64,000 bases of DNA from Azolla caroliniana (taxonomy: Eukaryota > Plantae > Polypodiophyta), in NCBI GenBank assembly GCA_043228905.1, contig JBHGNT010000013.1, forward strand, positions 18,662,001-18,726,000, written 5' to 3'. The notes beneath the pieces are model-generated. The model was given only the letters and a program-made list of their open reading frames with translations, did no database searches and was not told the DNA's origin. A program made the translations under genes and the position numbers. Positions 16,280 through 55,500 of the stretch are shown here, in pieces. Each line of letters starts with the position of its first letter. Position 1 is the stretch's first letter.

Positions 16280-19200
16280 TCCTAGTGTTTTCTAGTGATC
16301 CCATCCATTCAAAGATTCTTAAAACTCATATTGTAAAAATTGATCCTAACTCCACAACTCCCCCCCGTTCGAAAAGTGGGTCCCCCCCCAGTTCGACAAG
16401 TGAGAACCCACCAACCACAATTCGAGTAGTTGGCCCCCACTCCCATACACCCCCCCCCCCCCCCCCCCCCCCCAAAAAAAAGATGCATTCCAACTCCGTC
16501 ACTCATGGCACCTTCGAACATCGCGACTGTCAAACACATAGCACAAACAAGACCCTCGATCGATGACGGAAAAAAGCAAGATAAAAACATCTCTGATAGC
16601 GGGGGTCTTGTTGAGATTATTTTCAATAACGAAGAGATGCTTCTACTTGAGCAAGAGATAGAGCGCCTTGAGCGAATAGTGGTCATATGCTACATGATGG
16701 GATCATGACCAAATAGAGGGTTGTTGCGAGATATGTTTCAAGCTAAATTTCATTCACAACTGCGTGGTATAAAAGAAGTCCAAATCATACTAGAAGACAA
16801 GGATTCTGCAACGAACCTCATAGCACTATCTCCCTTCCAGGTCCGAAACACATGGTTGTTCATGCGTAAATGGACACATGGTTTTAACCTAGAGAAAGCC
16901 ACGCAATAGGATGATTCCATGAAAAAGGTAACAATGTTGTTTCCTGGATTATCCTTAGAATACAACATGTTACTTCCTACTATTGGGAACTCCTTTGGTA
17001 TGATGCTGGATGAGGAACGAACGCTAGCGGACAGGCTAAAGAAGCACCTAGGCCCTCCCTCTATCCGCCTCTTGGTACAGGACATCAATAAACTTACCTC
17101 CAAGATCCTCATTCCCGGGAAAAATGGAATGCGGAAATTGAACAACGCATAGAAGTGATTGGCGCACCGAGGCAATGTTTTGCCTGCAAAAAACTTGGTC
17201 ATATAAAAAAGAACTGCCCCACAAGACGTATTGAAGATCCTACAAAGGAGACTCTGGAAGGTCAGGACACCATAAGACATTAGAAGCCTCCCCCACCACG
17301 ACCCGACAAGACTGTGATGGAATGGCGAGTGGTGGAAAAAACCCATGTCCTTCGAAAAACTTCACTGGCACAAAATCCTCCATCGCCTACGAGCCCCAAT
17401 CGATTTGATCTACTACAAGAGCTCCCCCCCACGGATGAACATTCCCCTAGTTCTTTCTTAAGCCCCAAGGAACGGCCTAAGGTGACACTAAGCACACAAG
17501 AGAAAGTTCTCATTAAAGCTTACAAAATAGGGAAGCAAAGAAGAATAAGTCACGTTAAGACCTTAATATGGAGCTTGAGTGGAACGACACCCAATGCAGA
17601 AGCAACAAACCAAGGCAGAATATCATAGTCTTCTTGGACACAAATGAGTGTGCTTCCTCTAGCCAAGACCTTGAACCACACCTGCAAAACGCCTTGAAAT
17701 GGCTAGGTATAGGGCTCAAGACAGTGGAAAAAATAAGGGTACATGTATCAGCGGTACACAATAACGGAGTTTCGATGACCTCAATCTCCTTTCCACTCTT
17801 GCTTCCAACACAGGAAGATTGGTCGAAATCTAAGATTAAAGATACATTATGTAGCCAAGCAGCATGCTTTGTAGCAAAAATAAGAGATGAAGAGCTCATG
17901 AACGAACTAAAGTAGCATTGGTATAACACTGAATTCTGGTGCACCATGAATGAAGAGGAACCTCATCTTTGCCACATCCACCTACGGACTATCATAGACG
18001 CCCAACTAACTCCAAGCTTTTTCTATTTCTATGAGAAGTATGAAGGGGCGATTGAAGCTCACAGGATAGCCCACAAACTCCACTCATGGATGTGGACCAC
18101 TATTCCATCCTTGGAAATGACTGGATATCTAAATGGTGAGTGCTCCCCACTCACGACCTGTTGTGCAAAGCACCAGGAACAATTGGAAATCTCCCACCCC
18201 ACTCCATGAGTATGAAGATTATAACATGGAACGTGCAAGGGCTCAGACGTAGACTAGACAAGCAAAACAAATGGAAACTGAGAAGGGATCTTGAAGAATA
18301 TTTACTAGGGAGTGGTGCTGACATCGTCATGTTGTAGGAACACCACCTCGATAGCATGCAATCAAAGGAAGTCGGAGACCTTCTACCAGGATCATGGCGA
18401 ATGATTTGGGAGCCAGCAATTGGGGAGGATGGAAATCATGGTGGTATTTGCACTTGGATTCGGGAACATCTAGCCCAAGGCTTAATACACCAGGAATCAC
18501 TTATACCTGGTAACGTTGGCCATCCAAGGGCAACGATGGAACTTCATGAATGTTTATGCTCCAAATAGCAGAACAGAAAGGGCAACATTCTGGGACCGCA
18601 TCCGCCTACAAGTAGCAGATGCGGAAGAGTGGTGCATTGGAGGGGATTTTAATATGATCGAATCCATTCACGATAGCTCCAACAACAACCCCATAGTTCT
18701 ACGAGGAAGGGAACGTAAACAATGGGAGAAGTTATGTGTCCACCTTAACTTGCGAGACATCTGGCATTCTGACAACTTCCAACGAAAAAGGGATTCTCTC
18801 CTATTCTCCCGATCATACGGGTGGAATAGTGGGCCCACCCTATCTCGCATTGACCACATTTATGTGGGGGAGGCTCTAGAAGCGAAGGGAGGGTGGTGTC
18901 ACATAACGCCAGGGACGACTTTCTCTGACCATTACCCGATAGCTAGTCATTTTCAATTGCACCGAAAATGGGGCCCATTCCAAACTCACATCCCACACAC
19001 TATTTACACACTTACATATGTGAAGGACCAACTATCCAACCAATGGTCATTACCCGTCAATGACTCATCAGCATCTGACAAACTTCTAGCTAAACCAACA
19101 AGAGCTTCTACTCTCCTACATGAGATTGTCCAGACCAAAAGCAAGGATGCTCAAGAGAAGCGACAGATGACAAAACGGGGACTAATAGCCATAGAACGAC

Positions 19201-22200
19201 TCCAACAGAGATACCCATCTTGTATTTGGATCGCAGGACAAGTCGCCACGGCCAAACATGAACTTAGCATGGGGGAAAAGGAAATATATGACATGGAGTT
19301 TCATGGAAGCATGGCGCAATGGATTCGAGTAGGGGACAAAACCACAAAGGAATTCTTCTGCTCCAAAGGCCCGAGGCACGCTAGAACTGTGATGCGTAGC
19401 CTCAACCGAGAGGATGGAACGACCATTGAGGATGGCGACGAAATGAGGAATATTGCCACAAGTTATTATCGCCGCCCACTTACCGAAGACATTATAGCTA
19501 CAGGGGAAGACATAAAAGAAGATATTATCCTCCCAAGCATACCCGAGAAAGTCACGCCGGAAATGAATACATGGCTCGTGCGTCCCCTATCAATCATCGA
19601 GATATGGGAGACCCTCACTGATTTAGATGTCGATAGTTGCCCCAGAATCGACGGCCTCACCCCACACTTTTTCACAAGCCTTTGGGACACTATTAGAGAA
19701 GACCTCCTCCAGGCATATGAGGATATCATCACCTCTGGAAGCATGCTGGAGGAATTTGGACAAGGGATGATACATCTCATTCCTAAAAGTGGTGGGAATG
19801 CCAATGACATTAGCAAGTGGCGGCCCATAACTCTTCTCAATATTGTCTATAAATTGCTCGCAAAAATCGTGGCATGCCGTTTAACACCACTTCTCCCTCA
19901 ACTCATTCATCCGTCCCAGACAGGTTTCGTTAGAAATCGGAGGATCCTAGACAACCTCTTCTCATTCTGGGAAGTAGTAGCCCTTGCCAAGCGAACCAAC
20001 AACAAGGTAGCGGTGGTGTTACTAGATTTTGAGAAAGCATATGACAGGGTATGCTAGAACTTTCTAGAAAGTGTGATGGGGAAACTCGGCTTTCAAGAGA
20101 CATGGATCAAAGGCATTGCAGGACTTTATAGGAATGGCAGCTGAAAGGAGCCCCTTTTTCCGAATATCCCGATCTGTACGACAGGGGATGCCCACTAGCT
20201 CCATCCTTATTTCTATTATACACCGAAGCACTCTCTTGCTTTCTCAACTCGTGGCATCTCAACCTACGTGGTCTTCCCGTACCTCATTCTCACCAAAGCA
20301 TCCTGGATATAGAATTTGCAAATGACACAACAGTCTACCTGCAAGGGGACTTGGAAAACCTCCAAAAGCTAGAAAGTGGGCTAGCTATATTTTGCGAGAG
20401 ATCCAACACCATGATCAATTAGCACAAATCCTGCGCAATATGGCTCTCTCAAGAAACACATCCGGTGTGGCACCCACATCCCGCTTTCAAATGGATCAAT
20501 CAAGGAGCGAGCACCAAATATTTGGGTTTCCAAATTGGTTTCAACATACCTCTGGAGACTATGATTGCACCTGTTATCCATTCCATTCGACAAAAGTTGA
20601 TACATTGGAGTTCGAAAAAACTGTCGTTAGCGGATCGCATCATAGTGGCAAATCAAGTAGTACTCGCAACAACATGGTACAGTCTATCATGCTGGACAAT
20701 CTCCAAGGAATGTATACATCATATTCAATGACTGGTTCACAACTACATTTGGTCTGGTAAGGAAGACCACGTAGCTCGCGCCAAGGTGGCGTGGCCTATA
20801 CTCACATCACCTAAGTCGGGAGGAGGATTGGGTCTTATCGATCCCCTTTCACAATCGAAAGCCTTACTTGCCAAATTTGTGGTGCGAGGACTCCAACCAG
20901 GAAATGATTGTTGGAAAATGCTATTGAGGTTACGTTTCGCTTACTTTAGGCCACGAAAAGGGGTCAATTGGGCCCCCCAAACGGGATGGATTCTAAACAT
21001 GGATCCCAAACCTAGTTTCTCCCGCCAATTGGAGGATAGATTCAGTGCATCCATGTGGAAGGCATGGTGTGACATTCGTCGAGGGCTCAAGTGTGATCAA
21101 CCGAGATTCGAACCTGCCTAGCTTAGTCAACGTATCCTATGGAACCCATGTATCAAGGATGAATCTAATCAACTACTGGGATCACGTAAGGGGTTGGCAT
21201 GGGGATACATTGTAGAAGGTCCAGGAAAAAGTATAAAATGTTGGTGACGGTTTATGTCACTGCCACTACAAGATCAGGCAAACATACTCCATGGAATCAA
21301 TGGCGGATGGACTATGAGATCGGAAATCATTAACGCTCTACTAATTAGGGAATCTGCTACTCAAAGGACGACAATGGAGAAATGGATAGGCCACGGGGAG
21401 GAGGGATCTCTATTCCCAAGAGGTAGGGGACCACCAAACAAACTTGAAGGCTCTAAATTGCGACACACTGAGACACCAACACAGAATAACGCAATTGGAG
21501 TACTCACGTATACTGGTCATAAATGGATTATAGATCCGGATCCAATCAAAGTACAACCCAATTGACACATATGTATTCATGAAAACACATGGCTACGTAA
21601 GGTCAGTTGGGACCCTTTGCAATGCACATGGCGTGATCCCTATGCGGCGCAAGGAAGCAAACACATCCCTTTCTTCCAATTCACAACTAGATTGGGTCGC
21701 CACATTCTAGCCGCTCAAACCGCCCGAGAGCTGGCTGCTGCGAAGGTCTGGCACACATTTCAAGTTCCTCCCATAATAATCACCTAGTTTTGGTAGAAAA
21801 TCTGGAAACAACAACACACGAGGCGAATTACCACGTTCCAATGGCTATTAATACATAAGTCCCTACAGGTGGGAGCATGGCAACGTGGGAACCTTAGCTC
21901 TCCTAATTGTGTAGAGTGCCCACATGCAGTAGAATCAATACGACACACTCTATGGGACTGCCCAACATCCCATCGAATATGGCGGGGGGTTGGCCGCTTG
22001 TTGCAATTATGCCAGGTGCAAGGCTCAATCAAGGTGGGAAATATATGTTGGCTATCATGGCAGGGCGCAATTGGTAGATACGAGCATTAGGAGGAGGGGA
22101 TGACTTTGGTGATAAAAGCACAAGAGGTCTTTTTCTCCTCTAGCGGCAATGTCCACTCCACTCCTCTTAATGACAAATCTCAAGAGCTGTTGGAATTGGT

Positions 22201-25201: not shown

Positions 25202-28200
25202 CTAGAAGTAGGACGATTGTTCTTGTAAGATGTTCAAATGAGCTAAAATCCTTGCCGCATAATGCCGAGCTTTGTTTGTCCCATCTTGTGTCAACGATAT
25301 TAGAGCCATTTGAGCCATGTTCCCATACTTCTCCCTAAACGTATTCCTCCTGAAGAACCTCTCAAGAATCCATAATGCACTTTCTTGAACTCTTGGAGTT
25401 CCGGTTGTAAGTAACCGAACAATGGGACCCACACCTCGCTCTTCAGCAATGGCATCTGCACCTTTCTCCCAAAACTCATCATAAAGGAGTGTGGCAAGGG
25501 CACCAAGTGCAGCCTCCACGACAGCAGGCTCTTTCTCTTCCAAAGTTTTTATCAACAAAGGTAGCGCTTGTGCTTCCAAGAGGCAAAAAGACTTCTCAAT
25601 AGAGCACGTGCCACCATGGACCTTACATAAATCTTCTAGCAGCTGCGGCGAACTGTGTCTGAAACACCAAAACCTACCACGTTCCTTCTTCTGCGAAGAA
25701 TGGCATGTTGTATTCAGTGTGCTCTCGGAGAGTTGCCCAAGTGAAATTGCGGCTCGACACTTTGTCACATGTGAACCTGACCGAAGCAACCGAAGCAACA
25801 CTGGGATGATTCCTTTCTCAGCAACATAACGTTGAAGCGACACATTGGAAGGAGACGTGAATCTCACGAACACCCCTATAGTGTTTTCCAAAAGCTCTCG
25901 CTTTATACAATCCTTGGAGGTCGCTTTCTGAAGTATTTCTAAAACCACTTGAAGCAACCCACCTTCGACCATCAGTTCCGTAATGGAGTTGTTATCAACA
26001 GGAATGTGTTGAAGTATACCCATGACACTTGATTTGACATCATCCCGAGATGACTCGAGCATAAGGAGGTCAACTAGAGATTTTAAAGGCTTCACACCCA
26101 TCTCATTTGCCAATGTCTGTCCACCTCCATCTTGTGTCACAACATATAGAAGCTTCAGTGCAAAGAGACGTACCTCAGCATCAGCAGTTACCATATAAAG
26201 ACTAACAAGAACCTCGATATATCCAGCCTCTCTCATAGTTTCCCTCAGGACTCCTGCACACAGTGGTGATGAGAGACCAACAAGAGCTTGAAGGAGGCGA
26301 GCTTGAAGCAAAGAACCACTAAGATGCAAAAGTGAAAGTAATTGGTATATTGTTTCATTCAGTTCCGGACCATTCCCCAGCAAGTCATAATAAGAATCAC
26401 CAGATGAAGTATTTTTAGTAGTCGCAAGGTTTGCAAACACATCAGCTGCCTGTTCTTTCATAGTCATTAGGATTGACTTTGATGTGAAAAGAATCTCCAG
26501 CAAAAGCCTAACTACCCCAGCGTTAACAATATCATCTCTATTTCTAGAGAGTTTTGATAGATTCTGGAGAGCTCCAAGGGAGGCTGATTTTAACTCAAAG
26601 TTACCCTCTGACAGCATCTTTACAAGAGGATCTAAAACTCCCAATTGGACCAGTGTTCTTCTACTGTAGTCCGTTAATTGCATCTCCGTTATAGTGTTTG
26701 CCATAAGGATTTGGGTCATATCCAACCCTGCACTAAAACCAGAAGTTTCGAAATCACAACCTAAAACTCCGAAAACATCCTTTCAAAAACTATGATTTTT
26801 TTTATATACAACAAGATATGTCAGAAAATAAATATGATATAAACCAAGACAAGTCGAACTAAAATATATACCAAGACATGTCACAAATATGACATACAAC
26901 AAACCTGTCAAAATATGATGTGCAACAGCTCACATTGGCACATAAATTAATGTGCCAATTCACCATTTCTATGCATTATTCACCAAAAATGATTAATAAA
27001 AAAGAGGGAATTGTTTACACTCTCAAACCTTAACTAACTAGCCTTTTAAAGAAAATGATGTTGAATTGACAATGTCAACATGGAGTAGGATCATGTAATA
27101 TGATTACAAATCAATCTTAGACATAGTTTTAAGAAGATTACCTTCATGCATACGTTGCACTAGGGGCTTGAAGTAGTTAGCTTCCGCCATGAGAATCACA
27201 TTATGGTCTTTATTTTTAGCGAGGTTTTCCAAGACCATCTGAGCATCTTCAGCAGCCTGTCGGACTTCACTAGTTGTCATGGTTACTAAGAGTAATACAC
27301 AACCTTGGGTTTTGGTTAACTGCTTGCACAGTTTTTGTTCTTTTGAGAGCTCAAGGAGAAGGGATACAGCTTGTCTTGATTCAAGCATTTCCCGAGCAAG
27401 AGAACGAACCGCAAATGTTATCACACCAGCTTCACATGCTCGAACCTTCATACAAAACCAACAGAATATCATTCATCACCTATATCAAGCTAAGGTTCAA
27501 ATTATTATTAAGTTTTTTCTGAGCCAATTTACTTATTGGTGACATTGATTTCTCACCTTATTATCAAGGTTTCCTTTAATTAGCATGGTTAAAGTTGTGA
27601 ACGTTTTCTTCCTTATGGTGCTTTTACTTGACTTCAAAAGATTCACCAATACAGGTACTAAACCTTCAGCCGCAATCCAGTGTCCATCCACTGACTTCGC
27701 TTCACAGAGCTCATAAAGCTCCTCCAAGGTACCAAACACTATAGCTTCATCCTCACTATTAAGTTTAGACCCCATAGATGTGAGCCGAAATTGTAAATTC
27801 CTAGTTTTCCATTCCTCAATTGATCTCTTGAGGATCGTATTGGGCTTGAGATCTAAATGTTGCAATTCTACAAGGCTAAGTGGGCACATCGTATGACCTT
27901 CGGCAAACCACTTCTGAATAGCCTTTCTCTCGAATGCATGTCCAGACGCCACTTCTACAGGATCTTCCATCACCTCTTGTGTTATAGGACAATAGAATGA
28001 ATGCAAAGGTGGGAAAGGATGTGAACCTAGAACCCCTCTTTTATCCATGAATTGTTTCTCCCGTTCTCTTCGGGAATATGCAATGTCTGCCCAACTAAGT
28101 AATGCCAATATTCGTTGTAATTGAAGAGCCTCGGCCTCGTTTTTCTCAAGCTCAGCGATTTCCTTCTCTTTCTTAAGCTTTTCAAGCTCTTTCTTAAGGG

Positions 28201-28768
28201 AGAGAGGATTCAAATCGACTCCAACGACTTCGGCGATCTCTACCAAGAACCTCTCATTGGAGAAGTTAGTGCTTTCTCGGTAATCCTGAAGACCCGTTTT
28301 GATCTTGTTAGCAACCTCTTCAACTGCATGTGATGTCTTGAACTCTACATATTGCATTTGTTTGACGAGAAGCATAGCTTTATCTTGAACCTCAATGGAA
28401 AGGTCAATATGAGAATGCAGAATAAGGCTAATCGCCTGCCCAATTTCACCCATCATTTTTTTCACCGTTTTCAGCAGAAAACAGCTATTGATAAGAAGAT
28501 AAAACCGGCTTTTAATTTTGTATGTTTCCATGAGAACTTTTGCATTCTTTACCTCATTATCCAGGCATTCCATTGCACTTCTAAAAGTATCTGGCTCTTC
28601 AATTCCATCGGCCTGGATTTCCTGAAGGATAAGGTGGATATTTCCAAGGCAAGCAGAAAGGCACCCAAAATTCTCTTTCTCGATCAACACATGCCGAGCT
28701 GCCTCGAGGATCTCCATAATGTGCAGTGATGTCCGGGACAAAAGCTCGGATGTGGGCACAAAGGCCAT
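25202..28768 (-). CDS. U-box/ARM-repeat E3 ubiquitin ligase, PUB43/PUB44(SAUL1)-like, ~1013 aa, 3 exons
   Basis: Exons 28768-27557, 27445-27142, 26727-25202 total 3042 nt in frame. N-terminal helical domain, U-box SFYCPITQEVMEDPV..GHAFERKAIQKWF..CP..LKPN..LKRSIEEW, ARM repeats with MAEANYFKPL, CKVHGGTCS..FCLLEA, and C-terminal ARILAHLNIL.EQSSYF. Confidence 0.95.
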
Positions 28769-36903: not shown

Positions 36904-38112
36904 GGTACGACTCGACGCCACGGTAGTGGGATGGGACGCCGATTGAGGCTCGAGTCCATCTCGATCCCTTCGCTCGGGGGTGGTGGTTGGATCGGCACCC
37001 TTCTTTCTCTCTCTCTTCTCTATTTAGATCTATCTATTCATCTATATTCCATCCTTATCTAATGCTTACATTAGTTCATGTCTCTAACAGTTGGTATCAG
37101 AGCTCATTTTCTAATGTTTCTTTTGTTGTCTTTTGTTTTCTTGATTGATGGCGATCGATTTACGTGCGGTCGGCCTTCATGCAGACAAGGATCAACAAAG
37201 GAACTTCGGTAATCTTTCTTGTTTTTTTTTGTCTATTTTTTTCTTCTCCCATCTAATCATGTGTATGGTTAATATGTAATTTTTTTCATTAATTCAATGA
37301 TGTTGTAGTGGTAATTCATTGGTTGTATAAAACGTTTACATATGTGTATGAGGTCAATACCTCATTTGACGTATATTGATTATGTGATGAGTGTCGTATG
37401 CGCACAAGGTTAATACCTCAATTGCGTATTACATTCACAAACATATGTTACGTTTGCGTATGAGGTCAATACCTCGATTCGTTGTAAATGATATGTGTTT
37501 GGTCTCGTATGCGTAAGAGGTCAATACCTCAATTGCGTATTACGATTAACCTTTATTTTTGGTATATGCCTCGATTGCGTATCTCAATTACGTCATTTTT
37601 GGCTATTAAATATAACGATTTGTTTAATATAGGTATATGTGGTCACGTGTATACGTAGTTGATCGTATATATGTGATAATATACATATGTGTATATAAGT
37701 TATTACGTGATTTTAAATCGAATGTTTTCCTTTTTGGGGAAAGGATCTTGGTGGTCATCCTCACATTTTTGTGAGAATAGCGTTGTCACCATCCCTTTTT
37801 TCAACAATTTTTTATTGTTGAAATCCCCATTGGTGACTTTGATATTTCGTTACGTAAAGAAATGCCTATAGCCATAATGATGTTGAGAACGTAGGGCTTG
37901 ACCCATTTCATGTGAGGTCGCTCCTATGACACACGTATCCAACATCCCTCCCTCATTACATGGATACGATGCCACCATGAAATCATTCTTATGAGAGATA
38001 TTCATAATGATGTGACCATGTGATGGGTTTTTGTCCGCCGGAATAGTAACCGACGGCCAAAAGCGTAGGAATAAGAAACTATATAAAGCGTAACATATGT
38101 AACGGTTCACGA

Positions 38113-38807
38113 TGTCGTGAAGAAAACCGTCCCCGGGCGCAAACCGTGTATAGCGTGTGTCAACCGACCCTTACACGTGGGCACGCCCCTTGTTGTATAA
38201 TAGATAGGTAGGCACAAAAGTCAAATCCTAGGTAGCAATATTCTATAGGGAGAATCGAGGAGTATCTCTGTCCGAAAGGACAGAGAATTAATGTGATGTA
38301 AACAGGTGAAAACGGTCTCCCTCCTTGAGATATAAAAGAGAGGTAGACGGGGAGAGAGGGGTATCGCGCGCGAGAGGGGACGAAGTGTTGTCGGACTGGG
38401 ACCGAGCTCCTCTTCTCTGTCATTCTCCATTGCTTTCTTTTGCGCAGGTTCTCGAGAGGCTGATTCTGCTCCGTGGAACGCCCGTGTGCTTCCGGCAGAA
38501 TCTCCATCTTGCTCCCCTGCGCGCGTGGGTTATCAGGCGTCGGTATCCATCTAGCCGACCTGATCGGTTGTAACCGTTCGCGTCGTCTGCATACATATAT
38601 TTATATACGTACACTAGTGTTCATATACTCTATTCCCCTTTCAACTCGTGTCTCCTGTGTTGTTGGGCCACGTTCCCGTGCGCTTCTTTGTCTATACATG
38701 TGAGAGCGTGTCTCTCTCTCTCTCTCTCCCCTTTTCTCACCTATTCCTCGGTCCAAGACCCCAATGGTCCCGCCTTGTTCTCCACGCACGCGCGTAACAA
38801 TGCGACA
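38113..38807 (+). mobile_element. Solo LTR F inserted in D's 5' LTR
   Basis: TGTCG..CGACA termini; absent from D's 3' LTR (empty site ttcACGCgggg); flanks ACGA/ACGC. The last ~55 nt match the ends of the E and G LTRs. Confidence 0.88.
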
Positions 38808-39457
38808 ACGCGGGGAAGCGTGAACGACTAATTAGACCATGCATATATAAAGGGCAGAAAACCTCTTAAGGAGGTGCGTGTAAATTTTGGGAAATGTAAA
38901 AGAACGCTTGATAATAGAATACTATCTTCTCTGAGTTTCTGTGTATAGGTACGACTAATTCAGTGTCTGTGTCTCGGATACGTAATCGTAGTAGTACGTA
39001 AGCGCAACCTGTGATAAGGAGTCGGTTGTAGCCGTCTCCCCTTACACACGGAGGAATCACAGAGGTTCTCTCCTTACGTAGTACGATTAAAGCTCTGTTC
39101 GTTGTTCCACACCCACCTTGGGGTCTAGGTCGAAGGACTGACCATGGACCGTGTTCCTAAGAGGCAACACTTTTGGCACGCTTGGTGATCTGTGTTTCCT
39201 CACAGACGAACAACAACGAATGGATGTTTAGCTGCAGACGACCCAGAGAACCAACAAGACAAGACCGGCCAATAACAAGGTCGGTCACACGCCAGGCAGA
39301 AGAATGCGCCCGGCAAAAGCCACGCATCGGCGACCCCAGTAATACCTGCCAGGAGTGCAAAGGGGATTCCTTGCTCCCCAAATACCTCGACGAGGCGAGG
39401 GGACCACACTTACCGCAACCACCCGGTGACCTTTTCCGATCCGCCGTAGCTCCCACG

Positions 39458-42400
39458 ATGGCCTTTGCCTACCCCCGCTTTAATGGCGAAACCGACACCG
39501 CAACTCATATTCGCATGTTCTTAAACGTTTGGAATGCAAACCACATGGCACAGAACCTTTCCGAGACGGTGTCGCGTTGTTACGCGCGTGCGTGTGGAAG
39601 GGGCGGGACCACGGGGGTCTTTGGCTAGGGAGAAGAGGAGAAAGGTTAAGACAACGAATGGAAGATTAGCTCATAGCTCAAGAGGAGAAGAGAACGAATA
39701 TGACATTATGATAGAAGAAGATGAAGAAGATGAAGAAGATGGAGTCAAGATACTCAACAAGAAGTTCGATTAAGAAAACATAAACGCTTTACAATGGTGG
39801 CCGCCATGGCCGCACCAAACGACTATAAGAAAACCCTAAAGGAAAACCCAAGAAGAAAACCCTAACCGAACCCTAACGCTCGACCTATGTGGTATACCTC
39901 GCACACTCAAAATAGGCAACCCCCACAATGGTGCCTTCTCTCTCCTTTTATAGCACAAGGAGGGAAGACCGTTTACAAAAGTGAGACTAAAATATCCCCT
40001 TTCATTCAAAGGGGATATTTGCCTTGATTTGGGGGAGGGTGAGATTGATGGCCCCTTAACTCCCACCTCCTCACAAACGACTAGGTACCTATGTACCGCA
40101 TAGTACCTCTCTCTCTCTCTCCCGCGTGGATGTGCGTACAACCACATCACCTTTATACCTTTATTACTATTACAAATACATTATGTACGTGTGCAACGTT
40201 GCACATCGCTCTTTGGCTCTCGTTGCTCGGGTTTCCGCTTGTGGACGAAAATCTTCACGACAACGGTGGCACACCAGTCGAAAATGACGGAGTTCGGATT
40301 AACATTAGATGGGTGTGCGGTGTTCTGGCATTCACAGATGGATTTACCAGCCATAACAACCTTCGATCAACTGCAGTCCGTCTTCTTGCGTTTTTTCCAC
40401 CGGAGGGTTCCACAACGCGAGATTCTCGGGCAGTTTTATAGAATTAAGCAACTACCGACTGAGACGATAGCAGACTTCAGCTTACAGTTCCAAAATTTAC
40501 GACGGAAACTAGATCGAAGCCCTGCGGAGGAGGAGGCTCGGGAGACATTTCTAGCAGCGTTACGTCGGCCCATCCGAGCAACACTCAACAGCAATAGCGT
40601 GAAAGGGGAAACGGCGGATATGGTGATTGAACGAGCGTTACAACTCGAATTGGATGACGAGGAGGAGAGGTTTTCGATGTCATCCTTACGACAAGCGTTA
40701 CCTCAGGATGAGGAACGCCAATTTCGTCAGGCAATCCAGTGCACGATTTGCTTGAACTCGGGGCATTCCGCGATGGAGTGCAATATGCGAATCCACTGCC
40801 CAATCTGCCACTCGAAGGTTCACATAGTCGACCAATGCGAGTACAATATGTTAAACAGGGCCACGCCCGCGGTCCGCAGCATGGACACACAGTGGCAACC
40901 ACATCGAGCGGAACAAAGGAGGCAAGAAGACCGACCCTGGTATAAGGATCGCAACCCACGGGAGGACAGGTACAACCGAAATCGCCAGAATCACAACGAG
41001 TCCGAGGAGGAGGACCCGGAAGACGAGGATTATCGTGGACATTCGAGTTACGCCAAAGGGGGTCGGCGATACGAACATCAACGCCCGATAAACAAACGGG
41101 GCGGCTTCAATGGCTATCGAGGTAAGCCTCGACAATATAGCGATCACCGGCGTTACGACGAAAGCTCGGGGGATGAGTGGCACCAGGAACAACGACGGGA
41201 TCAACAGCAGCCACCGCGTACGTCCCGCCAAACGAGGCCGGACCGCGAGGAGCAAGTAGCGCCCGTAGAACGACACACTCCACCTGGGGTTGAGAAGGGA
41301 GAATCAAGCATCCATTGTTTTATTTGTCAGCAACCCGGACATTATGCCACACAATGCCCAACATGCAAGGGAAAGGGGCCCGCCGTCAACACGATTACAG
41401 CGGAGGTGCAACAAGTCACGACACGCTAGAAAACGAAAACGGCGGATTGGGTTGCGCAGGACGAGGTACGACGACAAGCCCAAGCCTGGGTGGAAAAAGC
41501 AAACGCGACCAATACGGAACGTATGAGGCAGGAGTCCGCGAACGCAATGAAGCGAACAGAGAACGAAAAACTGGGGCCGGACCCCATTTGGCAAGTGTTA
41601 GCGGGCTGTGAAATCACGCTAATTATGGAAAAACTGCTACAGCTAGTTCCACGTTTCCGCCAGACCATGGAAGCACAGGTGGCGGGCATGACCGGGTCGA
41701 GCGTTGCCACAAACCTGACTGACGTCAGCGAGGGACCACCAGTGGTAGATCAGCACAACCCGGCCATTACAGTAATATTGCACGGAGAGGAAGTCCCTGG
41801 ATGTGTAATCGACGGCGGCTCAGGCGTCAATGTGATTAACGCAAAAACTTGCGAACAGTTGGGCATTTCCGAATGGGAGGCGTGTCCATTCTGGCTTCGC
41901 ATGGCAGATACCCGATCAGTGCGGCCGTTGGGGCTAATTCGCAAAATAGGCATCATCGTGGGCGGACACCGCTTCGACATATCGGCGGTCGTCCTCGCTT
42001 TGGATGCGCCAGGAGCATACCCAGTGCTTCTGGGCAGACAATGGCTTCAGACAGAAAATATCAAGCAGAGCTGGCAACACGAGTGTATCAGTTTCCGGCA
42101 GGGACGCATCAAGGTTCGTGTTCCTACGAAAGGCAATACGCCCCAACCTAAGGGGATAACACCGTTGTATGCGGAAGACATCAATATGTTGGCTGGGGTG
42201 GAGAATGCCGAATTGGAAGCGTACCTTGACGAACATCCTCGGATTATTCCATTGTTCGAGATAGATGTCATCGCAACTGCGGCAGAATATACTACGGCCA
42301 TTGTTCCGAGCGAAGAGCCGTACGAACCAAACCCAGAGTCCATATTGGAACTCAGCAGAGCACAGGCGGCCTTCGAAAGGGAAATGGAGATTTCATGACG

Positions 42401-45277
42401 GGTCACCGCCTCCGCTCTCGACGAAGTAAATGTGGGTACGGGATCGGAACCCCGGTTCCTCTCCATAGCAAAAGAATTGAGGCCGGACCAGAGAACCACA
42501 ATGATCGCACTACTCACGGAATATAAAGATGTGTTTGCGTGGGCTCATGAGGACATGAAGGGGTTAGATCCCAAATTCTATCAGCATAAGATCAATTTAG
42601 CAACGGACGCGAAACTTGTCCAGCAGCGTCGCTACCGCATGAACCCCAATTACGCGACCCGCGTGAAAGAAGAAATTGACAAGCTGTTGAGGGCTGGGTT
42701 CATACGGCCAGTAAAACAAGCGACATGGCTTGGCCCGATAGTGGTTGTCCCAAAGAAAAACGGCAAAATACGGGTATGCGTGGATTACCGGAAATTAAAC
42801 GTCGTAACCATTACAGATGCATTTCCCTTACCCTTCACCGATAGCGTGTTGGACGCCGTCGCAGGCCATGACATGTACAGTTTCTTAGATGGCTTCAGTG
42901 GCTATAACCAAGTACGCATGCACCCCGACGACCAGGAGAAGACGACATTTGTCACGGACTGGGGAGTATATGTGGCGGTCGTCATGATGTTCGGGCTAAA
43001 GACAGCACCGGCAACATTCCAACAAACGATTATGGAGATCTTTGGGGAATACATTCCGGCATTCATGCAAGTCTTTTTAGACGATTTTGCGGTATATGGC
43101 CGAACAAAAGACCATTTCTCGCACTTACGTCTCTGCCTGGAACGTTGCCGCACCGCAAGCTTAAGCCAGAATCCCGCGAAATGTGCCTTCGGCGTGACCA
43201 GCAGGACTCTCCTAGGCCACATAGTCAGCAAGGAAGGAATAGCGGTCGACCCAAACAAGATCTCCGCTATTACGCAAGCTAAAACTCCGACAAATGCCAA
43301 AGCACTTACCGGTTTCTGGGCCAAATACGGTGGCATAGTCGGATGATACGGTATTTGGCGGACTTCGCCACGCCACTACACGCTGTCGTACATCGGACTC
43401 CTTTCCAATGGATTGCAACAGAGGATAAGGCCTATGAGGCACTTAAGATAATGCTCACGCAAGCGCCTGTAGTACAACCTCCAATTTGGGCGAAGCCATT
43501 CCACGTGTTAGTCGACGCCTCGGACATAGCAATAGGAAGCGCGCTAATGCAACTCACCGAACCAAATTGGTACAGGCCAGTATACTACGCAAGTCGTAAA
43601 TTATCAGCAGCAGAGCGTAACTATTCCACAACAGAGCGGGAGGCGCTAGGGATGATCTATAGCATCAATAAATTCCGACATTATTTACTGGGACGGAAAT
43701 TCACGTTCCACGTGGATCATTCAACATTATTGTATTTGGTAGAGAAACAAGCCCTGACAGGGAAATTGGTGCGGTGGATGCTGCTGCTCCAGGAATTCGA
43801 GTTCGTAATTCAGCACCGGCCAGGGACGCAACACGTAGTGGCGGATTTTTTGAGCAGACTTGAGAATGGAGAAACAGTACAAAAAGACGACGACGATTTT
43901 CCGGATGCCGACATTTGGCGAGTAGCGACATTTGTAGAAAAAACGAAATCGACCTTTCTGGATCGATGGCTTATGGAAATGACGTACTTTTTGACTACAG
44001 GACTACCTCCACCACAATTAAGCACAGACGAGAAGAAATGACTAGCCGTCCGAAGCCGTCACTTCTGCCTCGTCGAAGGAATTTTATATCACAAAGGAAG
44101 TGACGGCATTTGGCAACGCGGAGTCCGTAAGGATGAGAAGGAAGCAGTTTTACGGGAGGCACACTACGGCACGGCCGGCGGCCATTACGCAGGCGACGTG
44201 ACAACCCGCAAAGTATGGCAGGCGGGCTTATGATGGCCAACAACGCAGAAGGACGCATCCGAGTATTGTAGAAAGTGTGATTTGTGCCAGTGGATGGGTC
44301 AGCCCGCGGAGGACGCAAGGATGCCACACCAGCCCGTATTACCACTAGACCCCTTCCAAAAGTGGGGATTGGATTTTGTGGGGCCCTTCACACCAGCAGC
44401 AGACCGTACGGGCAACAAATACATATTGGTAGCCACGAATTACTGTACCAAATGGGAAGAACCAAAGGCACTACGGGAAAATACGGCGGCCGTCACAGCC
44501 AAATTTCTGTACAAGCACATCTGGTGCCGGTTCGACTGCCCGATTGAGCTCATCAGTGACCAGGGGAGCCACTTCCTCAATACGGTGGTTCGGGAACTAA
44601 CACAGCATTACGTAGTCGTCCACAAGAAAAGCACGCCATACTACCCGCAGGCGAATGGATTAGCGGAATCCACGAACAAAACTTTACAGACCATTTTGAA
44701 GAAAACCGTCAATGAAAACAGAACGGACTGGGATACCAAACTCCAGAGTGCGTTATGGGCGTACAGAACTAGTTACAAAACAAGCATACGGTCAACACCG
44801 TTCCGGCTAGCGTTTGGACTAGAAGCGGTAATGCCGGTCGAATTTCGGGTACCTAGTTTGCGCATTCAGGTACGGAACCGATTATCAGAAGCCAAGTCAG
44901 AGGAGGAACGACTCTACCAACTCCTTGAACTAGGGGAGAAATGCATCCACAACATGGCTATGTTGGAAGAAGAACAGCGACGGCGTAAAGCATTTGTCGA
45001 TCGACATCGGAGCGCAAGGGAAAAGGAGTTTGCCGTGGGCCGAGCGGTGCTAGTTTTTCAAACGCGCATGGGCCAGATGTCGGGTAAGCTACGTTTCCGC
45101 TGGACCGGCCCATACTGGATAATTGGAGCGGAACAGGGCACGTTCCAACTAGGAACACTGGCTGGATAAATAGTACGGCAAAAAGTGAATGGGTTTCGGC
45201 TCAAACCTTCCCTAGGCCCTACGCCATCTAACCCATTCACCGCCGAACGGGACAAAGCCGGAGAACCCGCAGCGTAA
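39458..45277 (+). pseudogene. Element D gag-pol, interrupted by solo LTR G and several stops
   Basis: Removing 39570-40266 restores QNLSETV-AHQSKMTEFGL. ORF pieces 40191-41429, 41490-42398, 42432-43346, 43343-44041, 44282-45169. Confidence 0.9.
39570..40262 (-). mobile_element. Solo LTR G inserted in D gag, inverted relative to F and E
   Basis: TGTCG..CGACA termini with perfect 4-bp TSD ACGG. Reverse complement starts tgtcgtgaagattttcg and ends ccaagacccccgtggtcccgcc..cgcgcgtaacaacgcgaca. Confidence 0.9.
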
Positions 45278-45628
45278 AAGGGACAGGCCCAATTGTACTA
45301 TAATGTAAAAATAGGGGGTAACTAACCGTTAGGAAAAAAAAAAAAAAAATTGAAAAAAGAAAAGAAAAGAAGAGAAGATAGCGACTATTAAAACGACTAA
45401 AGGCATGCACAAACTCCTAGTTCAAGAACACGCGGCACCACGATGGCTCACCGCCCAATGAACCCTAAGCCACAAAAAGAAGGAAATAGAAGGTTTTCTG
45501 CACAAAGCAGAAACACAACGTCTAGCTATCAGCGCTCCCATCACTCCTCCTCACCTTCTTCCCCATCACATCTCAGAGCTCCAACTCACCACTGCTACCC
45601 GTCGCCTCTCCACGAACCTACTCTGGCG

Positions 45629-47732
45629 ATGCCGATCTTCATCTCTACTGCCCTACGCCGATGGCTCGTGGAGAAGCGCTTGGATGGTTATATTCGGGTC
45701 GCAGAAGCACCTCCGCACCCGGACACCATGGACATCGCCAGGCGGCTTAACATCGACACGGTCACAAACTCTTCCATTCGGAAGAAGTTAGACCTATCCT
45801 CACTAAGCGAAAGACATTTCGAAATACCTCCTACAGAGGCGTTGCAGCGGTATTTTGGCCCATACTCATCCTCCGCCAAAGCCTATAGAACAAAACAGAT
45901 TCCGGATCCCTTCTTCCGTGAAGTTGCCAAGTTCCTACTGGAAGTAGGCTGCGTCCATGTCAACGCTTACGGGATGCCTAAACAGAAGGCGGGCATCATT
46001 ATCGACACCTTTGAGGGGCGTACAGTCGACTGGGGGATCATCACAGGGCCGACGTTAAGGGAAGGCTTGCATGCGTACCAAGCAGGCAAAAAGCTCAGGC
46101 CAATCATCCAACAATACCTTACGGTACTGTTTCCACCCCGAGACCTACTAGCACCACAGCCCAGCCAACCCACGGCCCCGCCCCGCTCCGCGAAACACAG
46201 GTTAGCGGAGTTAGCGGCCCCAGAGTGGGAGGAAGAACCCCAACCGGCCCAACGAGACCCAAGGACAACACCTCCTACCGACCAACCGGATACACGGGCA
46301 ACGCAGGAGGAACAACCGAGACACCCCATGGAGGCAGCCCCAGAACCAGACACCGAAGCACGGGGGGAAAGCCCTAGATCCAAACGGCGCAGATTGGACA
46401 GAAAAGATGGGCGGGGGTTGGTAAAAAACGCTCCCACAGATCCGGAGGCACCGACCGCAGGCGAAGGCCCCGCAACAGCAGAGCCGAATACCACCTTCGA
46501 AATCATCCGGGAGCCGCGGCCGATTATTACGACTCAATCCCAGCGAGGGAAAGTCGTATTGACGGCGGAAAGCAAGGTTTTGGCATATCCGGATATTCCG
46601 GATACGGCCCACGAATTCAGCGCCCTCTTGCAGTTCGGTACCTCTTTCGAGCTCATGGAGTTCCTGGCAACACAACAGGTCAAAGCCGCCCAATGCATGG
46701 CCGAGGAGCATGCAGAATGACAGATGATAGAGTGCGCCCTAACACAAACAACGGCTAGCCAGGGTCGGCAGACAGAGGAACGCTGGGGTACGGCGAGTAG
46801 GGATGGAGATACCACCCTTAAACACGGCCCTAGTCGAAGTCCATCGGGAACTGGCAAAGGTCAGCACGGGCGCCAAGGAGATGGCCATAAAAAATAAGAA
46901 TGTCTGGAAGAAGGTTAAACTGACCGAAGCCGAACTACAAAAGGCCAACGCACGCATCGCGGAGTTAGAAGCTCATACGACTACGGCGCAACACGAAACC
47001 CTGCCACCGAACCACGTTATCAACGCTCTCAAAGAAAAAATAGAGGCTCAGACTGCCATCGCCTCAAAATAGAGGGTTTTATAAGCTAAACGAGGAGAGC
47101 ATTGTGACCGTACGGGAGGACCTAGCGCAAGACTATCGCGCGTTAGCAGACCAACACTCCGAAGAACTCGCACAACTCCTAGACGATTTTGGTGAAAGTC
47201 AGGAGGAGCTATTTCACCAGATCACACAAACCGGCAACATGCACACAAACGAGGAACCCAGCGAGACACCAATTCCGGTCACAACCGAAGAAGAGGAACC
47301 TCAGGTCCGATCACCAGCGAGGACAACGAGGGAGAATAGCGGGGACGAACGAGCGGAGTTCCCCACAAGACCAGACAGCGAAACCATTAACCAACAAAAG
47401 GTCCAGCCCACACCATCTTCAGAAAACGCGGAAAATAGTGCGGACCAGGCGGAATCCCCACCCCACGCCCAGGGACACACAAAAACGGCCAACACCACGG
47501 AGGACGTAACAATAGAGGCGGAGCAACAGCCGACTGCAAGCACGCTACCGGCGGAGCCCAGCCCACGAACTCAAGAAGAGCCCACCGTACCCGGACCACC
47601 CGCACACGGCGAAGGCGACTTCAGGAGAAACCAGGCCGACCAAGCAGAGGAGCCGCACCACGATGCACTATGGGCCCTACATCAACTCCGGCCGAGGACT
47701 CCACAACAGAGCCGAATATCCGGGGCATTTTG
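45629..47732 (+). pseudogene. Element D extra ORF (env-like position), unknown function
   Basis: Sense ORF pieces downstream of IN (45443-46720, 46803-47072, 47104 onward): a ~170-aa ordered-looking N-terminal region (..IIDTFEGRTVDWGII..), a P/E/T-rich linker and a coiled-coil-like segment. Confidence 0.65.
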
Positions 47733-48360
47733 TGTTGGGAAACAGGTCCCTCCGGATGGGAAGGTAGAAGAACAGCGCCGACGAACAAACTCGGCCGAGG
47801 CCGACAGGCCGAGGCCGAACCGGTATGAACCGGATGAGGAGTACCCGACTGCGGAGAGTCGGATGGTGCAGGCCCGGTATGAACCAGATGAGGAGTACCC
47901 GACTGCGGAGAGCCGGATGGAGCCCATCGTGGCTACATTTGTAAATAGCCGAAAAGTCATATTTGTATAAATATGACTTAGGGCAAACTTTTAGTAGTGG
48001 TTGTCATTCTTGTTGTCATTCCTTCTTGTTGGTGCAAGAAGAGATTAGAGCGCGTAACTGTACAGAGAGAGAGAGAGAGACGAGGTCGTTGCCTCTGTTG
48101 TAACCGCCGCCTGTGGCGAAGATCTGTGAGCACGAGGTCGTTGCCTTAGTGATCTCACTGTTGTATATTTCTGCATAGTGACAGTTTGCAGGTTGTGGGC
48201 TGCCGTGGTTTTTCCCCTATTTTGGGGTTTTCCACGTATACCTCCTGTGTACCATTTCTCCTCTTTTCTTGTCGCGTTTTTCATTACCTGTTTTTCTGTG
48301 TATGTAAAGAATCTCGGTTGTGGCCGAGCATTGGACATAAGGAACGTTAAGTTCTCAACA
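47733..48360 (+). mobile_element. Solo LTR H (copia-like appearance) in D's 3' region
   Basis: TGTTG..CAACA termini with perfect 5-bp TSD TTTTG; TATAAATA at ~47966; internal ~54-bp tandem duplication (~47820-47920). Superfamily assignment is uncertain. Confidence 0.85.
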
Positions 48361-48991
48361 TTTTGAAAGAAGATTAACGGGATGGGTCCGACGTGCAAAG
48401 GCACTGTCCCACAGGCGTGCCAGGTGTTGTCCGCCGGAATAGTAACCGACGGCCAAAAGCGTAGGAATAAGAAACTATATAAAGCGTAACGTATGTAACG
48501 GTTCACGCGGGGAAGCGTGAACGGCTAATTAGACCATGCATATATAAAGGGCAGAAAACCTCTTAAGGAGGTGCGTGTAAATTTTGGGAAATGTAAAAGA
48601 ACGCCTGATAATAGAATACTATCTTCTCTGAGTTTCTGTGTATAGCTATGACTAATTCAGTGTCTGTGTCTCGGATACGTAATCGTAGTAGTACGTAAGC
48701 GCAACCTGTGATAAGGAGTCGGTTGTAGCCGTCTCCCCTTACACATGGAGGAATCACAGAGGTTCTCTCCTTACGTAGTACGATTAAGCTCTTTTCGTTG
48801 TTCCACACCCACCTTGGGGTCTAGGTCGAAGGACTGACCACGGACCGTGTTCCTAAGAGCCAACATGGGCCACGTGGGCCTACTACGAAAAGAGGGCTCA
48901 TTTGGCTTGACCATTAGGTTGCACTTTGGCGTATGCCATCGTAATTACGAGACTTGAGGTTAGGTAACATACCAACATAGTTGTGCACTCA

Positions 48992-52500: not shown

Positions 52501-55500
52501 AAGGAAGGTGGCGGCAAGGAACGGGACCCGACGACACGAGATAATGGATCGGGAGTCGGTAAGACAGGGGAGGACGAAGTGCGAAACCCATACCGGTCGG
52601 TTACAGTTTCGGAAGGAACCGGTAGGGGGCAAACACGGGGAGGTGTGTCGGGCCGGAAAGGCACACCTAGGACGGAACAAGAGTCGTGGGCCGGATCGAA
52701 GCGTGACTACGGGTTGGTGTTCGGCACGGGCGGTGCCGAACAAAGGAAGCGGAAGACGGCACAAGGGAGGTGACGGGTGCATAGTGGACTGCACAGGGTC
52801 GGAGTCAAGGGATGACAAGGGAGTCCGGAGGAGGATCCTCCACATCCACTTCGTAGATCTCGGCCAGACAGTCAGAGTAATGAAGACTGACACGTCAAGC
52901 CCGGGATGACAAGCTGGTGGGGGCGATGGGACGACGGCAAGCGGAAGACTCAGGACCTGTTGCTGCAGCGCAAGACGGGAAGGGTCAAGCGGGCTACTAC
53001 GAGGTGTTCCTCGGAGGCGGAGGACACCGGTATGCGGATGAGCAGCGATGTACGATCTGGCCGGAAAGGGGCCGACAAGGTGTGCAATAAACCGGCGTAC
53101 GGCATAGGCAGTGCCAAACAACGGACGAGCATATGCGGCGCACGGAGGTGCCGGCGCGGAAAGGCGAGCGCGAAGATGGGTTGCGCGGTTCGGAGGTAGC
53201 GTTGTCGCAAAGTTTTGCGCACGTGTGTTACTTGGGCGGGACCGCGGGGATCTTGGACTAGGGAGTACTCAAGGGATAGAGGAGACCCGAGGTTTGCTTT
53301 ACGACAATACTACTTCCCGACCCCTTCCCGAGCAAGGTCTCGTTGCCCTTTGTTTTGTGAGGCCGGTGGCTCTTGTTGATCACGACTCGTTGACCTTCCG
53401 AGGTCACCGCACGAGCCAAGTGACCAAACAAGTACAAGCAAGATGAGCACGCAACATGAACACACAAGGGGACGATAACACAAACACGAATGTCCGTACA
53501 TCTTTATGAGGAGGAGAGGTGCATGGGTACGCCCGAACACTCCCTCTTCACAAGACGTCTAACGTACTAGGAAGACACAAAACACATGCACAAAATGCTC
53601 GTACGCCTTTATGAGGAGGAGAGGTGCATGGGCAAGCCCGAACGGTCCCCTCGTCACAAGACGGCCGAACGTACAAGGAAGACAAACACACGCACAAAAT
53701 GCACGTACGCCTTTATGACGAGGAGAGGTGCATGGGCAAGCCCGAACGGTCCCCTCGTCACAAGATGGCCAAACGTACGAGGAAGACACAAACACACACA
53801 CAAATACTTGTACGCCTTTATGAGGAGGAGAGGTGCATGGGCACGCCCGAACGGTCCCCTCGTCACAAGACGTCTAACGTACGAGGAAGACACAAAACAC
53901 ATGCACAAAATGCTCGTACGCCTTTATGAGGAGGAGAGGTGCATGGGCAAGCCCGAACGGTCCCCTCGTCACAAGACGGCCGAACGTACAAGGAAGACAC
54001 AAACACACGCACAAAATGCACGTACGCCTTTATGACGAGGAGAGGTGCATGGGCAAGCCCGAACGGTCCCCTCGTCACAAGACGGCCGAACGTACAAGGA
54101 AGACACAAACACACGCACAAAATGCACGTACGCCTTTATGAGGAGGAGAGGTGCATGGGCAAGCCCGAACGGTCCCCTCGTCACAAGACGGCCGAACGTA
54201 CAAGGAAGACACAAACACACGCACAAAATGCACGTACGCCTTTATGAGGAGGAGAGGTGCATGGGCAAGCCCGAACGGTCCCCTCGTCACAAGACGGCTG
54301 AACGTACAAGGAAGACACAAACACACGCACAAAATGCACGTACACCTTTATGAGGAGGAGAGGTGCATGGGCAAGCCCGAACGGTCCCCTCGTCACAAGA
54401 CGACCGAACGTACAAGGAAGACACGAATAAAGAAAGGAGAGAAAGAAACATGAATGATATCGACCAAAAAGATAAATACGTGTTTGATTCCAACGCAAGA
54501 GGACCCTTTATAAAATAGGGTTTTGTTTACAATGGCAACTTATAGTTAACCACAAGCTCAATCAAAACATAAATATTAAATGCCCTTAGAGACAGCAAAT
54601 TCGAACACGGCGAAGATGAACACACGAGCACCACCAAAATGCCAATCCCAACGAACCACAACAGCGCGTACAAGGCCAGAGAAGGATCCTCCACACCATT
54701 CCGGAGACCATGGCGGTTCGAGCCGACGTGGCGACGTAAGACCATGGACAAGGAAGGTGGCGACGAGAGGACGAAGGCAACGCAAAACAACATGGGATGG
54801 CAATCAGGACAACACGAATGGTCGACGGAGGCCAAGCGGGCCACTACGGGCGTTCCTCAAGCGGAGGACATCGGGCATACGACGGAGAACGGAGCGTGCA
54901 TACGGCCTAACAAGGGCCAGCGGAAGTATGCGTACCACAGAGATCGCGGCAAAGGACCCATCGACGGGTCGAACGAGCCTACGGGGAGGTAAGCTCGAAG
55001 GAAGAATCGAAGCCGACGGTTCAAACCGGCAGCGAGCCGGGATGCGGATTACGGAAGACCGGTTTCTCACCGGCCGAAATCTCTCACCCTTCACCGGATT
55101 TGGCACGTACCAGTGGACGTGTGGTTAGGTGGGGGCGGATGTCATGAAGAATTTTGTCTAGAGGCGGAAACCGGGAAATATTGGCTACATCGGCGGGGTG
55201 CCCTTGTGTAATTGTGTGAATAATAGGAGTTAAGTCAGGACAAAGAATCCCATGTAAATCGGGATTTATCCCACATTGTAACGCATCCCTCTCCTTGTTC
55301 TATAAAAGGAAGGGATGGTCCCTTGTAGAAGGGTTGCCCATTTTGTATTAGTAGGGTATACCATTAGACGGAGAAATGTTCTCTCTTTCTCTCTCTCTCT
55401 TGTTCTAGGGTTTTTCTTTCTCTTGCTCTCCTCTACTTCTTCTTCTTCGTCCTTCTGTGCATCAAGCCTTGGCATCTAGCGTTCCAGTTTTCTGCCCTAT

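What the first reader, a model, noticed from the sequence alone, without database searches (positions are those of the whole stretch)
48406..48424. LTR retrotransposon D has an inverted tRNA primer site where the polypurine tract should be
Seen: immediately 5' of D's 3' LTR (starts 48425) the sequence is GTCCCACAGGCGTGCCA-gg-TGTTG, with no purine tract. Its reverse complement, CAACA-cc-TGGCACGCCTGTGGGAC, is an LTR end plus PBS of the same type as D's normal PBS after the 5' LTR (CAACA-cttt-TGGCACGCTTGGTG). It fits a recalled tRNA-Arg 3' end (..GTCCCACCGGGCGTGCCA) better than the normal PBS does. The LTRs are direct repeats with a near-perfect TSD, and A, B, C and E here all have ordinary PPTs. 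Established: LTR elements prime minus strand with tRNA and plus strand with a PPT. Inference: minus-strand cDNA would display a tRNA-complementary site exactly at the U3 edge, so this lineage may prime both strands with tRNA. Alternatively the two complementary sites pair and circularise the RNA, or an antisense genome is also replicable. I know of no description of this, but cannot search.
Basis: partly seen in the sequence, partly recalled or inferred. Interest (0 to 1): 0.85.

Follow-up and report, generated by a model that had tools for sequence, protein, structure and literature searches.

The report
Retrotransposon priming both strands with tRNA
A large plant LTR-retrotransposon lineage has a reversed tRNA-binding site where the polypurine tract normally sits, and stray tRNA copies left at the matching LTR ends show it likely starts its second DNA strand from a host tRNA, which the textbook scheme does not include.

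Summary
Confirmed, and larger than reported. The site at 48406-48422 matches 17 of the last 18 nt of host tRNA-Arg(TCT), with one base missing, 2 nt before the 3' LTR. It marks a whole Ty3/gypsy clade: 2,585 genome matches (control 0), 7/7 PBS-anchored and 9/9 RT-anchored copies, no PPT, and it occurs in other organisms' contigs. It extends upstream: a covarying 4-bp hairpin sits at the tRNA A58 position, then about 10 more tRNA-like bases, so the minus-strand cDNA can pair about 28 nt of tRNA. Best evidence: six independent aberrant insertions carry an ungapped, hairpin-free copy of real tRNA-Arg (three of exactly 18 nt, three of 56-63 nt) joined to a U3 start, while the element's own 3' site is gapped. 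The commonest families use tRNA-Arg(TCG) at the normal PBS but tRNA-Arg(TCT) at the reversed site, which argues against RNA circularisation and against those copies coming from the minus-strand primer. Best reading: tRNA primes the plus strand (0.8; inferred, no biochemistry). Nine searches of open literature found no description.

The parts
38024..38028 (.). left target-site duplication (4/5 match to 48866-48870)
38029..39169 (+). 5' LTR of element D, interrupted by a nested TG..CA insert at 38113-38807
39174..39187 (+). normal PBS, 14-nt perfect complement of the 3' end of a host tRNA-Arg(TCT) isodecoder, after a 4-nt spacer
40104..41429 (+). gag (Retrotrans_gag, zf-CCHC); its 5' part is interrupted by a second nested insert at 39570-40262
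41430..45169 (+). pol in broken frames: protease-like region (recalled motif, no Pfam hit), RT, RNase H, integrase
45401..47970 (+). extra 3' sense ORF region with no Pfam or Atlas match; about 47733-48358 is absent from other copies
48382..48391 (+). tRNA T-arm-like segment (8/10 to the host tRNA bases 5' of the last 18 nt); likely the distal part of the binding site on minus-strand DNA
48393..48404 (+). 4-bp hairpin inserted at the tRNA A58 position; stem covaries across families
48406..48422 (+). reversed tRNA-Arg(TCT) site in place of the PPT: last 18 nt of the tRNA minus one base
48423..48424 (+). 2-nt spacer to U3 (2 nt in 82 of 86 catalogued gapped sites)
48425..48865 (+). 3' LTR
48866..48870 (.). 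right target-site duplication

Best explanation
This Ty3/gypsy lineage has a reversed tRNA-Arg(TCT) site instead of a polypurine tract and likely uses a second host tRNA to prime plus-strand DNA. Shown: the site, its conservation, the hairpin, and tRNA-templated copies at U3 starts. Inferred steps: (1) the minus strand is primed at the normal PBS by tRNA-Arg(TCT) or tRNA-Arg(TCG). (2) After strand transfer and RNase H clearance, the minus-strand cDNA shows the anti-tRNA site next to U3. (3) tRNA-Arg(TCT) anneals over about 28 nt (11 bp, one bulged base, 6-7 bp, the DNA hairpin looped out at A58, about 10 bp), and RT extends its CCA end through the spacer into U3. (4) The broken, short hybrid may shield the primer from RNase H (speculative). 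(5) The tRNA is normally removed or trimmed before integration. When this fails, the finishing minus strand copies it up to m1A58 or beyond, leaving the fossils.
For: Site present in 7 of 7 PBS-anchored copies with a U3 start in range (20 fetched) and 9 of 9 RT-anchored LTR pairs (20 fetched). 2,585 genome matches, control 0. One RT clade, 100/99 support. Six firm U3-side tRNA copies: L184 18/18 at two LTR-LTR junctions of a TSD-flanked element whose family site differs from tRNA in 12 of 12 copies; L185 18/18; L019 18 nt with 2 transitions in a fold-back with a perfect TSD; L143 57/57; L149 56 nt with a changed base at A58; L107 63 nt (lengths). In L143, L149, L184 and L185 the copy precedes a 5' LTR, whose left end is templated by plus-strand strong-stop DNA. 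L143 and L185 belong to families whose PBS fits tRNA-Arg(TCG), yet their copies are Arg(TCT). None of 94 Arg(TCG) 17-mers with CCA has a 2-nt spacer. The same kind of tRNA copy occurs at U5 ends, where tRNA priming is established. Hairpin 4/4 paired in 77 of 100 metagenome contexts (shuffle mean 20.9) and 58 of 78 own-genome contexts (37.9).
Against: No biochemical or raw-read evidence for an RNA-DNA junction. Fossils are few: of 19 ungapped 2-nt-spacer hits (16 events), 5 are at U3, 7 at the U5 side and 4 unresolved. A template switch onto free tRNA could also make them. The L019 jump has 5 nt of microhomology, 3 nt more than a tRNA template explains. One gapped 17-mer with unrelated upstream sequence (L482) could be a copy of a genomic-RNA primer. 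A tRNA:DNA hybrid should be an RNase H substrate, and the protective role of the bulge is untested. The hairpin shuffle ignores relatedness. Duplex energies use RNA parameters and ignore tRNA folding.
Confidence: 0.8

Rival explanations
1. The site is a non-purine PPT substitute: a structured piece of the element's own RNA survives RNase H and primes the plus strand. The tRNA copies arise when the minus strand, having copied that piece, switches template onto free tRNA.
For: The plus-sense RNA can fold locally, and hairpin covariation fits RNA or DNA equally. L482 is a possible genome-templated copy. L019 has extra microhomology.
Against: It does not explain why about 27 nt stay tRNA-like, ending in CCA, across diverged families. 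A search for gapped sites with altered upstream bases gave 9 hits, 8 of them ordinary 3' sites and 1 unplaced, against 6 firm tRNA-templated copies.
Confidence: 0.12
2. The site pairs with the 5' PBS to circularise the genomic RNA or gate minus-strand priming, and plus-strand priming occurs elsewhere.
For: In D itself the PBS region and the 3' site form a stable predicted duplex (-36.6 kcal/mol).
Against: In the abundant families the PBS fits tRNA-Arg(TCG) and shares only 4 nt with the site (8 of 9 RT-anchored pairs). The site follows the tRNA beyond the PBS-pairing part. It does not account for tRNA copies at U3.
Confidence: 0.04
3. An antisense genome is replicated with the reversed site as its minus-strand PBS.
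For: The architecture is symmetric. One TSD-flanked element has LTRs that appear flipped against its internal region (L155/L175).
Against: A working PBS is refreshed from tRNA: normal PBS copies vary among three isodecoders. The reversed site stays gapped. Only 10 hairpin-plus-ungapped sites exist; 9 are joined to long-spacer ends (U5 where a reference existed) and 1 is a mosaic.
Confidence: 0.03

Closest known systems
Plant non-chromovirus Ty3/gypsy elements (OTA superclade: Athila, Tat including aRH-less Tat Z1/Z2; REXdb, PMC6317226, PMC10508981)
   Same: Domain order gag-RT-RH-INT, no chromodomain, 5-bp TSD, tRNA-Arg PBS as in Ogre and TatIII, extra 3' ORF; nearest named RTs are from a fern and liverworts.
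   Different: No PPT (Brassicaceae Athila have a conserved PPT junction). No added RNase H found, unlike most Tat. The PBS is Arg, not Asp/Asn as in Athila. Exact lineage not resolved.
Yeast Ty3 (PMC5371799)
   Same: RT homologous (E about 1e-42); uses tRNA contacts at both RNA ends (bipartite PBS including T-arm pairing).
   Different: Ty3's second PBS part is on the RNA and serves minus-strand priming, and its plus strand is PPT-primed. Here the site is complementary to tRNA only on the minus-strand DNA.
Hepadnavirus DR2 plus-strand priming (recalled, no call)
   Same: A short RNA anneals to a complementary site on minus-strand DNA instead of surviving in place as a PPT.
   Different: That primer is a leftover of the viral RNA; here it is likely a host tRNA, in an LTR/integrase element.
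Helenus/Cassandra TRIMs (PMC10886601)
   Same: LTR elements carrying small-RNA-derived sequence.
   Different: Their tRNA or 5S pieces lie inside the LTR as promoters, and they keep both PBS and PPT.

Membership tests
Ty3/gypsy LTR retrotransposon | direct LTRs with TG..CA ends and TSD | tested here: met
Ty3/gypsy LTR retrotransposon | order gag-(PR)-RT-RH-INT; RT closest to Ty3 | tested here: met
Ty3/gypsy LTR retrotransposon | tRNA PBS after the 5' LTR | tested here: met
Canonical LTR replication scheme | polypurine tract before the 3' LTR | tested here: not met
   0 of 7 and 0 of 9 copies
Chromovirus | chromodomain; RT in the chromovirus clade | tested here: not met
   no chromodomain in D or L433 frames; RT apart from the window's other gypsy RTs
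Tat (aRH-bearing clades, Ogre, Retand) | additional RNase H domain | tested here: not met
   no such Pfam hit in D or in two long frames of L433
Athila / Tat Z1-Z2 | RT/RH/INT phylogeny with labelled references | not testable with these tools
   no labelled reference set available; one search has only species-named proteins
Athila | tRNA-Asp/Asn PBS | tested here: not met
   PBS is Arg against the table
Phygy / Selgy | 4-bp TSD, Trp or Ala PBS, no extra ORF | tested here: not met
tRNA-primed plus strand (proposed) | tRNA covalently attached to plus-strand strong-stop DNA | tested here: inconclusive
   indirect genomic fossils only

The most novel reading that the evidence does not exclude
A whole, abundant lineage of plant LTR retrotransposons has abandoned the polypurine tract and primes both DNA strands with host tRNAs, in many families two different tRNA-Arg isoacceptors, using a bulged three-way tRNA:DNA junction on the minus strand; the symmetry also allows LTR swapping and flipping between families.
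Probability: 0.68. Interest if true: 0.93.

Novelty: new variant of a known kind. Interest (0 to 1): 0.88.

Why it matters
tRNA for the minus strand and a PPT for the plus strand is given as the general scheme in the papers read. A lineage with over 2,500 copies that replaces the PPT with a tRNA site would be a real exception. It gives a direct way to test how RT and RNase H pick and spare a plus-strand primer. It predicts a second target for tRNA or tRNA-fragment control of transposons, on the cDNA. It also warns that annotation tools that score a PPT or look for the PBS on one side can mis-score or mis-orient these elements.

Tried and rejected
One-off rearrangement: rejected. I first read L175 as a family with an ungapped site; it appears to be a recombinant with flipped LTRs, so I dropped it as a family example. 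I first counted L208, L212-L215, L217, L221 and L189 as U3 fossils; they are at the opposite LTR end and were dropped (L214 and L217 by context only). L206, L209, L210 and L216 could not be oriented. L155, L186 and L182 are probable U3 copies and are not counted as firm. Scripts had regex faults and were repeated. No tRNA gene in the window. No relatives in viral contigs. No Pfam or Atlas hit for the extra ORF. No RNA holder listed; contigs of two guessed-RNA runs say nothing on strand or ends. Earlier findings were not available. No structure or complex prediction was run, as the claim concerns nucleic acids.

Full report
Observation. The 17-nt site, 2-nt spacer and 3' LTR are as reported. 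D spans 38029-48865 with a 4/5 TSD and 430 of 439 aligned LTR positions identical. It encodes gag, RT, RNase H and integrase in broken frames plus unannotated 3' ORFs. The host is a plant with a 523-Mb assembly; the nearest named RTs are from a fern and liverworts (46-59% identity). Host tRNA-Arg(TCT) genes occur as several isodecoders. D's PBS matches one for 14 contiguous nt. The reversed site matches another for 11 nt, lacks one base, then matches 6 more, and ends exactly where the last 18 nt of the tRNA begin. That RT stops at m1A58 after 18 nt is recalled knowledge.

Family and lineage. All 29 other junction-selected copies carry the site with 0-2 substitutions (selected by the query, so biased). 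Two less biased tests agree. Of 20 copies picked by their PBS (from 40 hits, leaving out those already seen at the 3' end), 7 had a U3 start in the fetched 10 kb and all 7 had the site; 1 had a partial LTR and 12 none. Of 20 copies picked by hand from 105 hits to a fern RT, 9 had an LTR pair and all 9 had the site; 1 more had the site without a detected pair; 10 had no 3' LTR in range. Genome-wide the gapped pattern has 2,585 matches, control 0. Twelve own-genome RTs form one clade (100/99); the site was seen in 11 of them and L434's 3' end was out of range. The window's other gypsy RTs fall far outside. The listed records have neighbouring accessions and may be one campaign. Contigs of a run labelled as another organism pile up on the site more than on its flanks (X16).

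Anatomy. Upstream of the 17-mer lies a 4-bp hairpin, then about 10 nt resembling the tRNA T-arm. The stem occurs in at least five complementary versions: 4/4 paired in 77 of 100 metagenome contexts (shuffle mean 20.9, max 32) and 58 of 78 own-genome contexts (mean 37.9, max 46) (relatedness not corrected). A duplex calculation pairs the tRNA's last 28 nt with the minus-strand site as 11 bp, a bulge, 6-7 bp, a 14-nt loop-out and about 10 bp (RNA parameters, rough). The spacer is 2 nt in 82 of 86 gapped sites.

tRNA copies at U3. If a tRNA primes the plus strand, failed removal should leave ungapped, hairpin-free tRNA sequence at U3 starts. Six firm events were found. L184: a TSD-flanked element, LTRs 99.8% alike, with three tandem 5' LTRs; both junctions read U5 end, spacer, then 18/18 host tRNA, spacer, U3. 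Its own 3' site and 12 of 12 family copies differ from the tRNA by the gap and substitutions. L185: 18/18 of another isodecoder before a 5' LTR. L143: 57/57 (three tandem copies, one event); the orientation is fixed by gag-pol in L197 and L169. L149: 56 nt with a changed base at A58, as also seen in two U5-side copies. L107: 63 nt. L019: a D-family mini-insertion with perfect TSD in which U3 folds back, reads the spacer and 18 nt of tRNA, then jumps into the 3' ORF. Of the 19 hits (16 events) of the 2-nt-spacer search, 5 were U3, 7 U5-side and 4 unresolved; L149 came.

Controls. The abundant families have a PBS for tRNA-Arg(TCG) (host genes; 8 of 9 pairs), but their reversed site and their U3 copies (L143, L185) are Arg(TCT). 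All 94 Arg(TCG) 17-mers with CCA have 5-8 nt spacers, none 2 nt (ends not individually oriented). So these copies do not come from the minus-strand primer, and PBS-site pairing is not the conserved feature. Normal PBSs vary among isodecoders, while the reversed site stays gapped: 10 hairpin-plus-ungapped sites exist, 9 joined to long-spacer ends and 1 mosaic. This fits inheritance through the RNA genome and argues against antisense replication. A search for genome-templated copies gave 9 hits: 5 point mutants and 3 hairpin deletions in native context, and 1 unplaced (L482), which counts against my reading if it is a primer copy. That pattern would catch only about half of such copies.

Mechanism. 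Most likely (0.8) tRNA-Arg(TCT) anneals to the minus-strand cDNA and primes the plus strand. The main open rival (0.12) is an element-derived RNA primer with occasional template switching onto tRNA. Both imply that tRNA pairs with this site during reverse transcription. How the hybrid escapes RNase H is untested.

Known work. Nine searches of the open library (listings and abstract starts) found no description. Passages read: PMC6317226 (plus its supplementary file 3 in full), PMC5371799, PMC11358816, PMC10886601, PMC7466625, PMC13468544, PMC10508981, PMC6894440 and bioRxiv 10.64898/2026.03.20.713144. None of these passages mentions a second, reversed tRNA site; the REXdb table has no PPT column. 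Subscription papers, Repbase notes and preprint supplements were not seen. The hepadnavirus comparison and the protease motif are recalled.

Verdict. Real, lineage-wide and apparently undescribed. A new replication variant within Ty3/gypsy; interest 0.88.

Noticed in passing
window 38113-38807 and 39570-40262: Two nested TG..CA inserts of about 695 nt in D, with 4-bp NCGN-type target duplications, the TSD type listed for Phygy in REXdb.
   Followed up: partly
window about 47733-48360: Segment absent from other D copies; it ends in an LTR-like end that other contigs follow with a Met-type PBS (label recalled).
   Followed up: no
L155/L175 (G000:C3 about 8.087-8.094 Mb): TSD-flanked element with 99% identical LTRs that appear inverted relative to an internal region from another family; tRNA-templated sites at both ends.
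   Followed up: partly
L467-L476: U5 ends with a full PBS joined to the reversed site of other families, suggesting plus-strand strong-stop DNA sometimes anneals to the tRNA-like site of another RNA.
   Followed up: partly
L222, L223, L229, L236, L238, L239: Nearly whole tRNA-Arg copies (70-76 nt, with CCA) attached to long-spacer LTR ends; tRNA scanners can call them genes.
   Followed up: no
L159/L179, L201, L274: Short elements with no detected RT use the same reversed site, so likely non-autonomous partners of the lineage.
   Followed up: partly
L184 family (G000:C16 about 17.53 Mb): Spacer of 11 nt between U5 and the PBS; U5-side spacers range from 1 to 11 nt across the lineage, suggesting the integrase trims long ends.
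   Followed up: no
L433:479-3421 (-); window 45401-47970: A 981-codon extra 3' ORF in a relative has no Pfam match; D's homologous frame has no Atlas match.
   Followed up: partly
window 25202-28768 (-), 18486-20057 (+), 53474-54424: A U-box/ARM host gene, a LINE fragment, and a 106-nt tandem array inside a neighbouring element.
   Followed up: no
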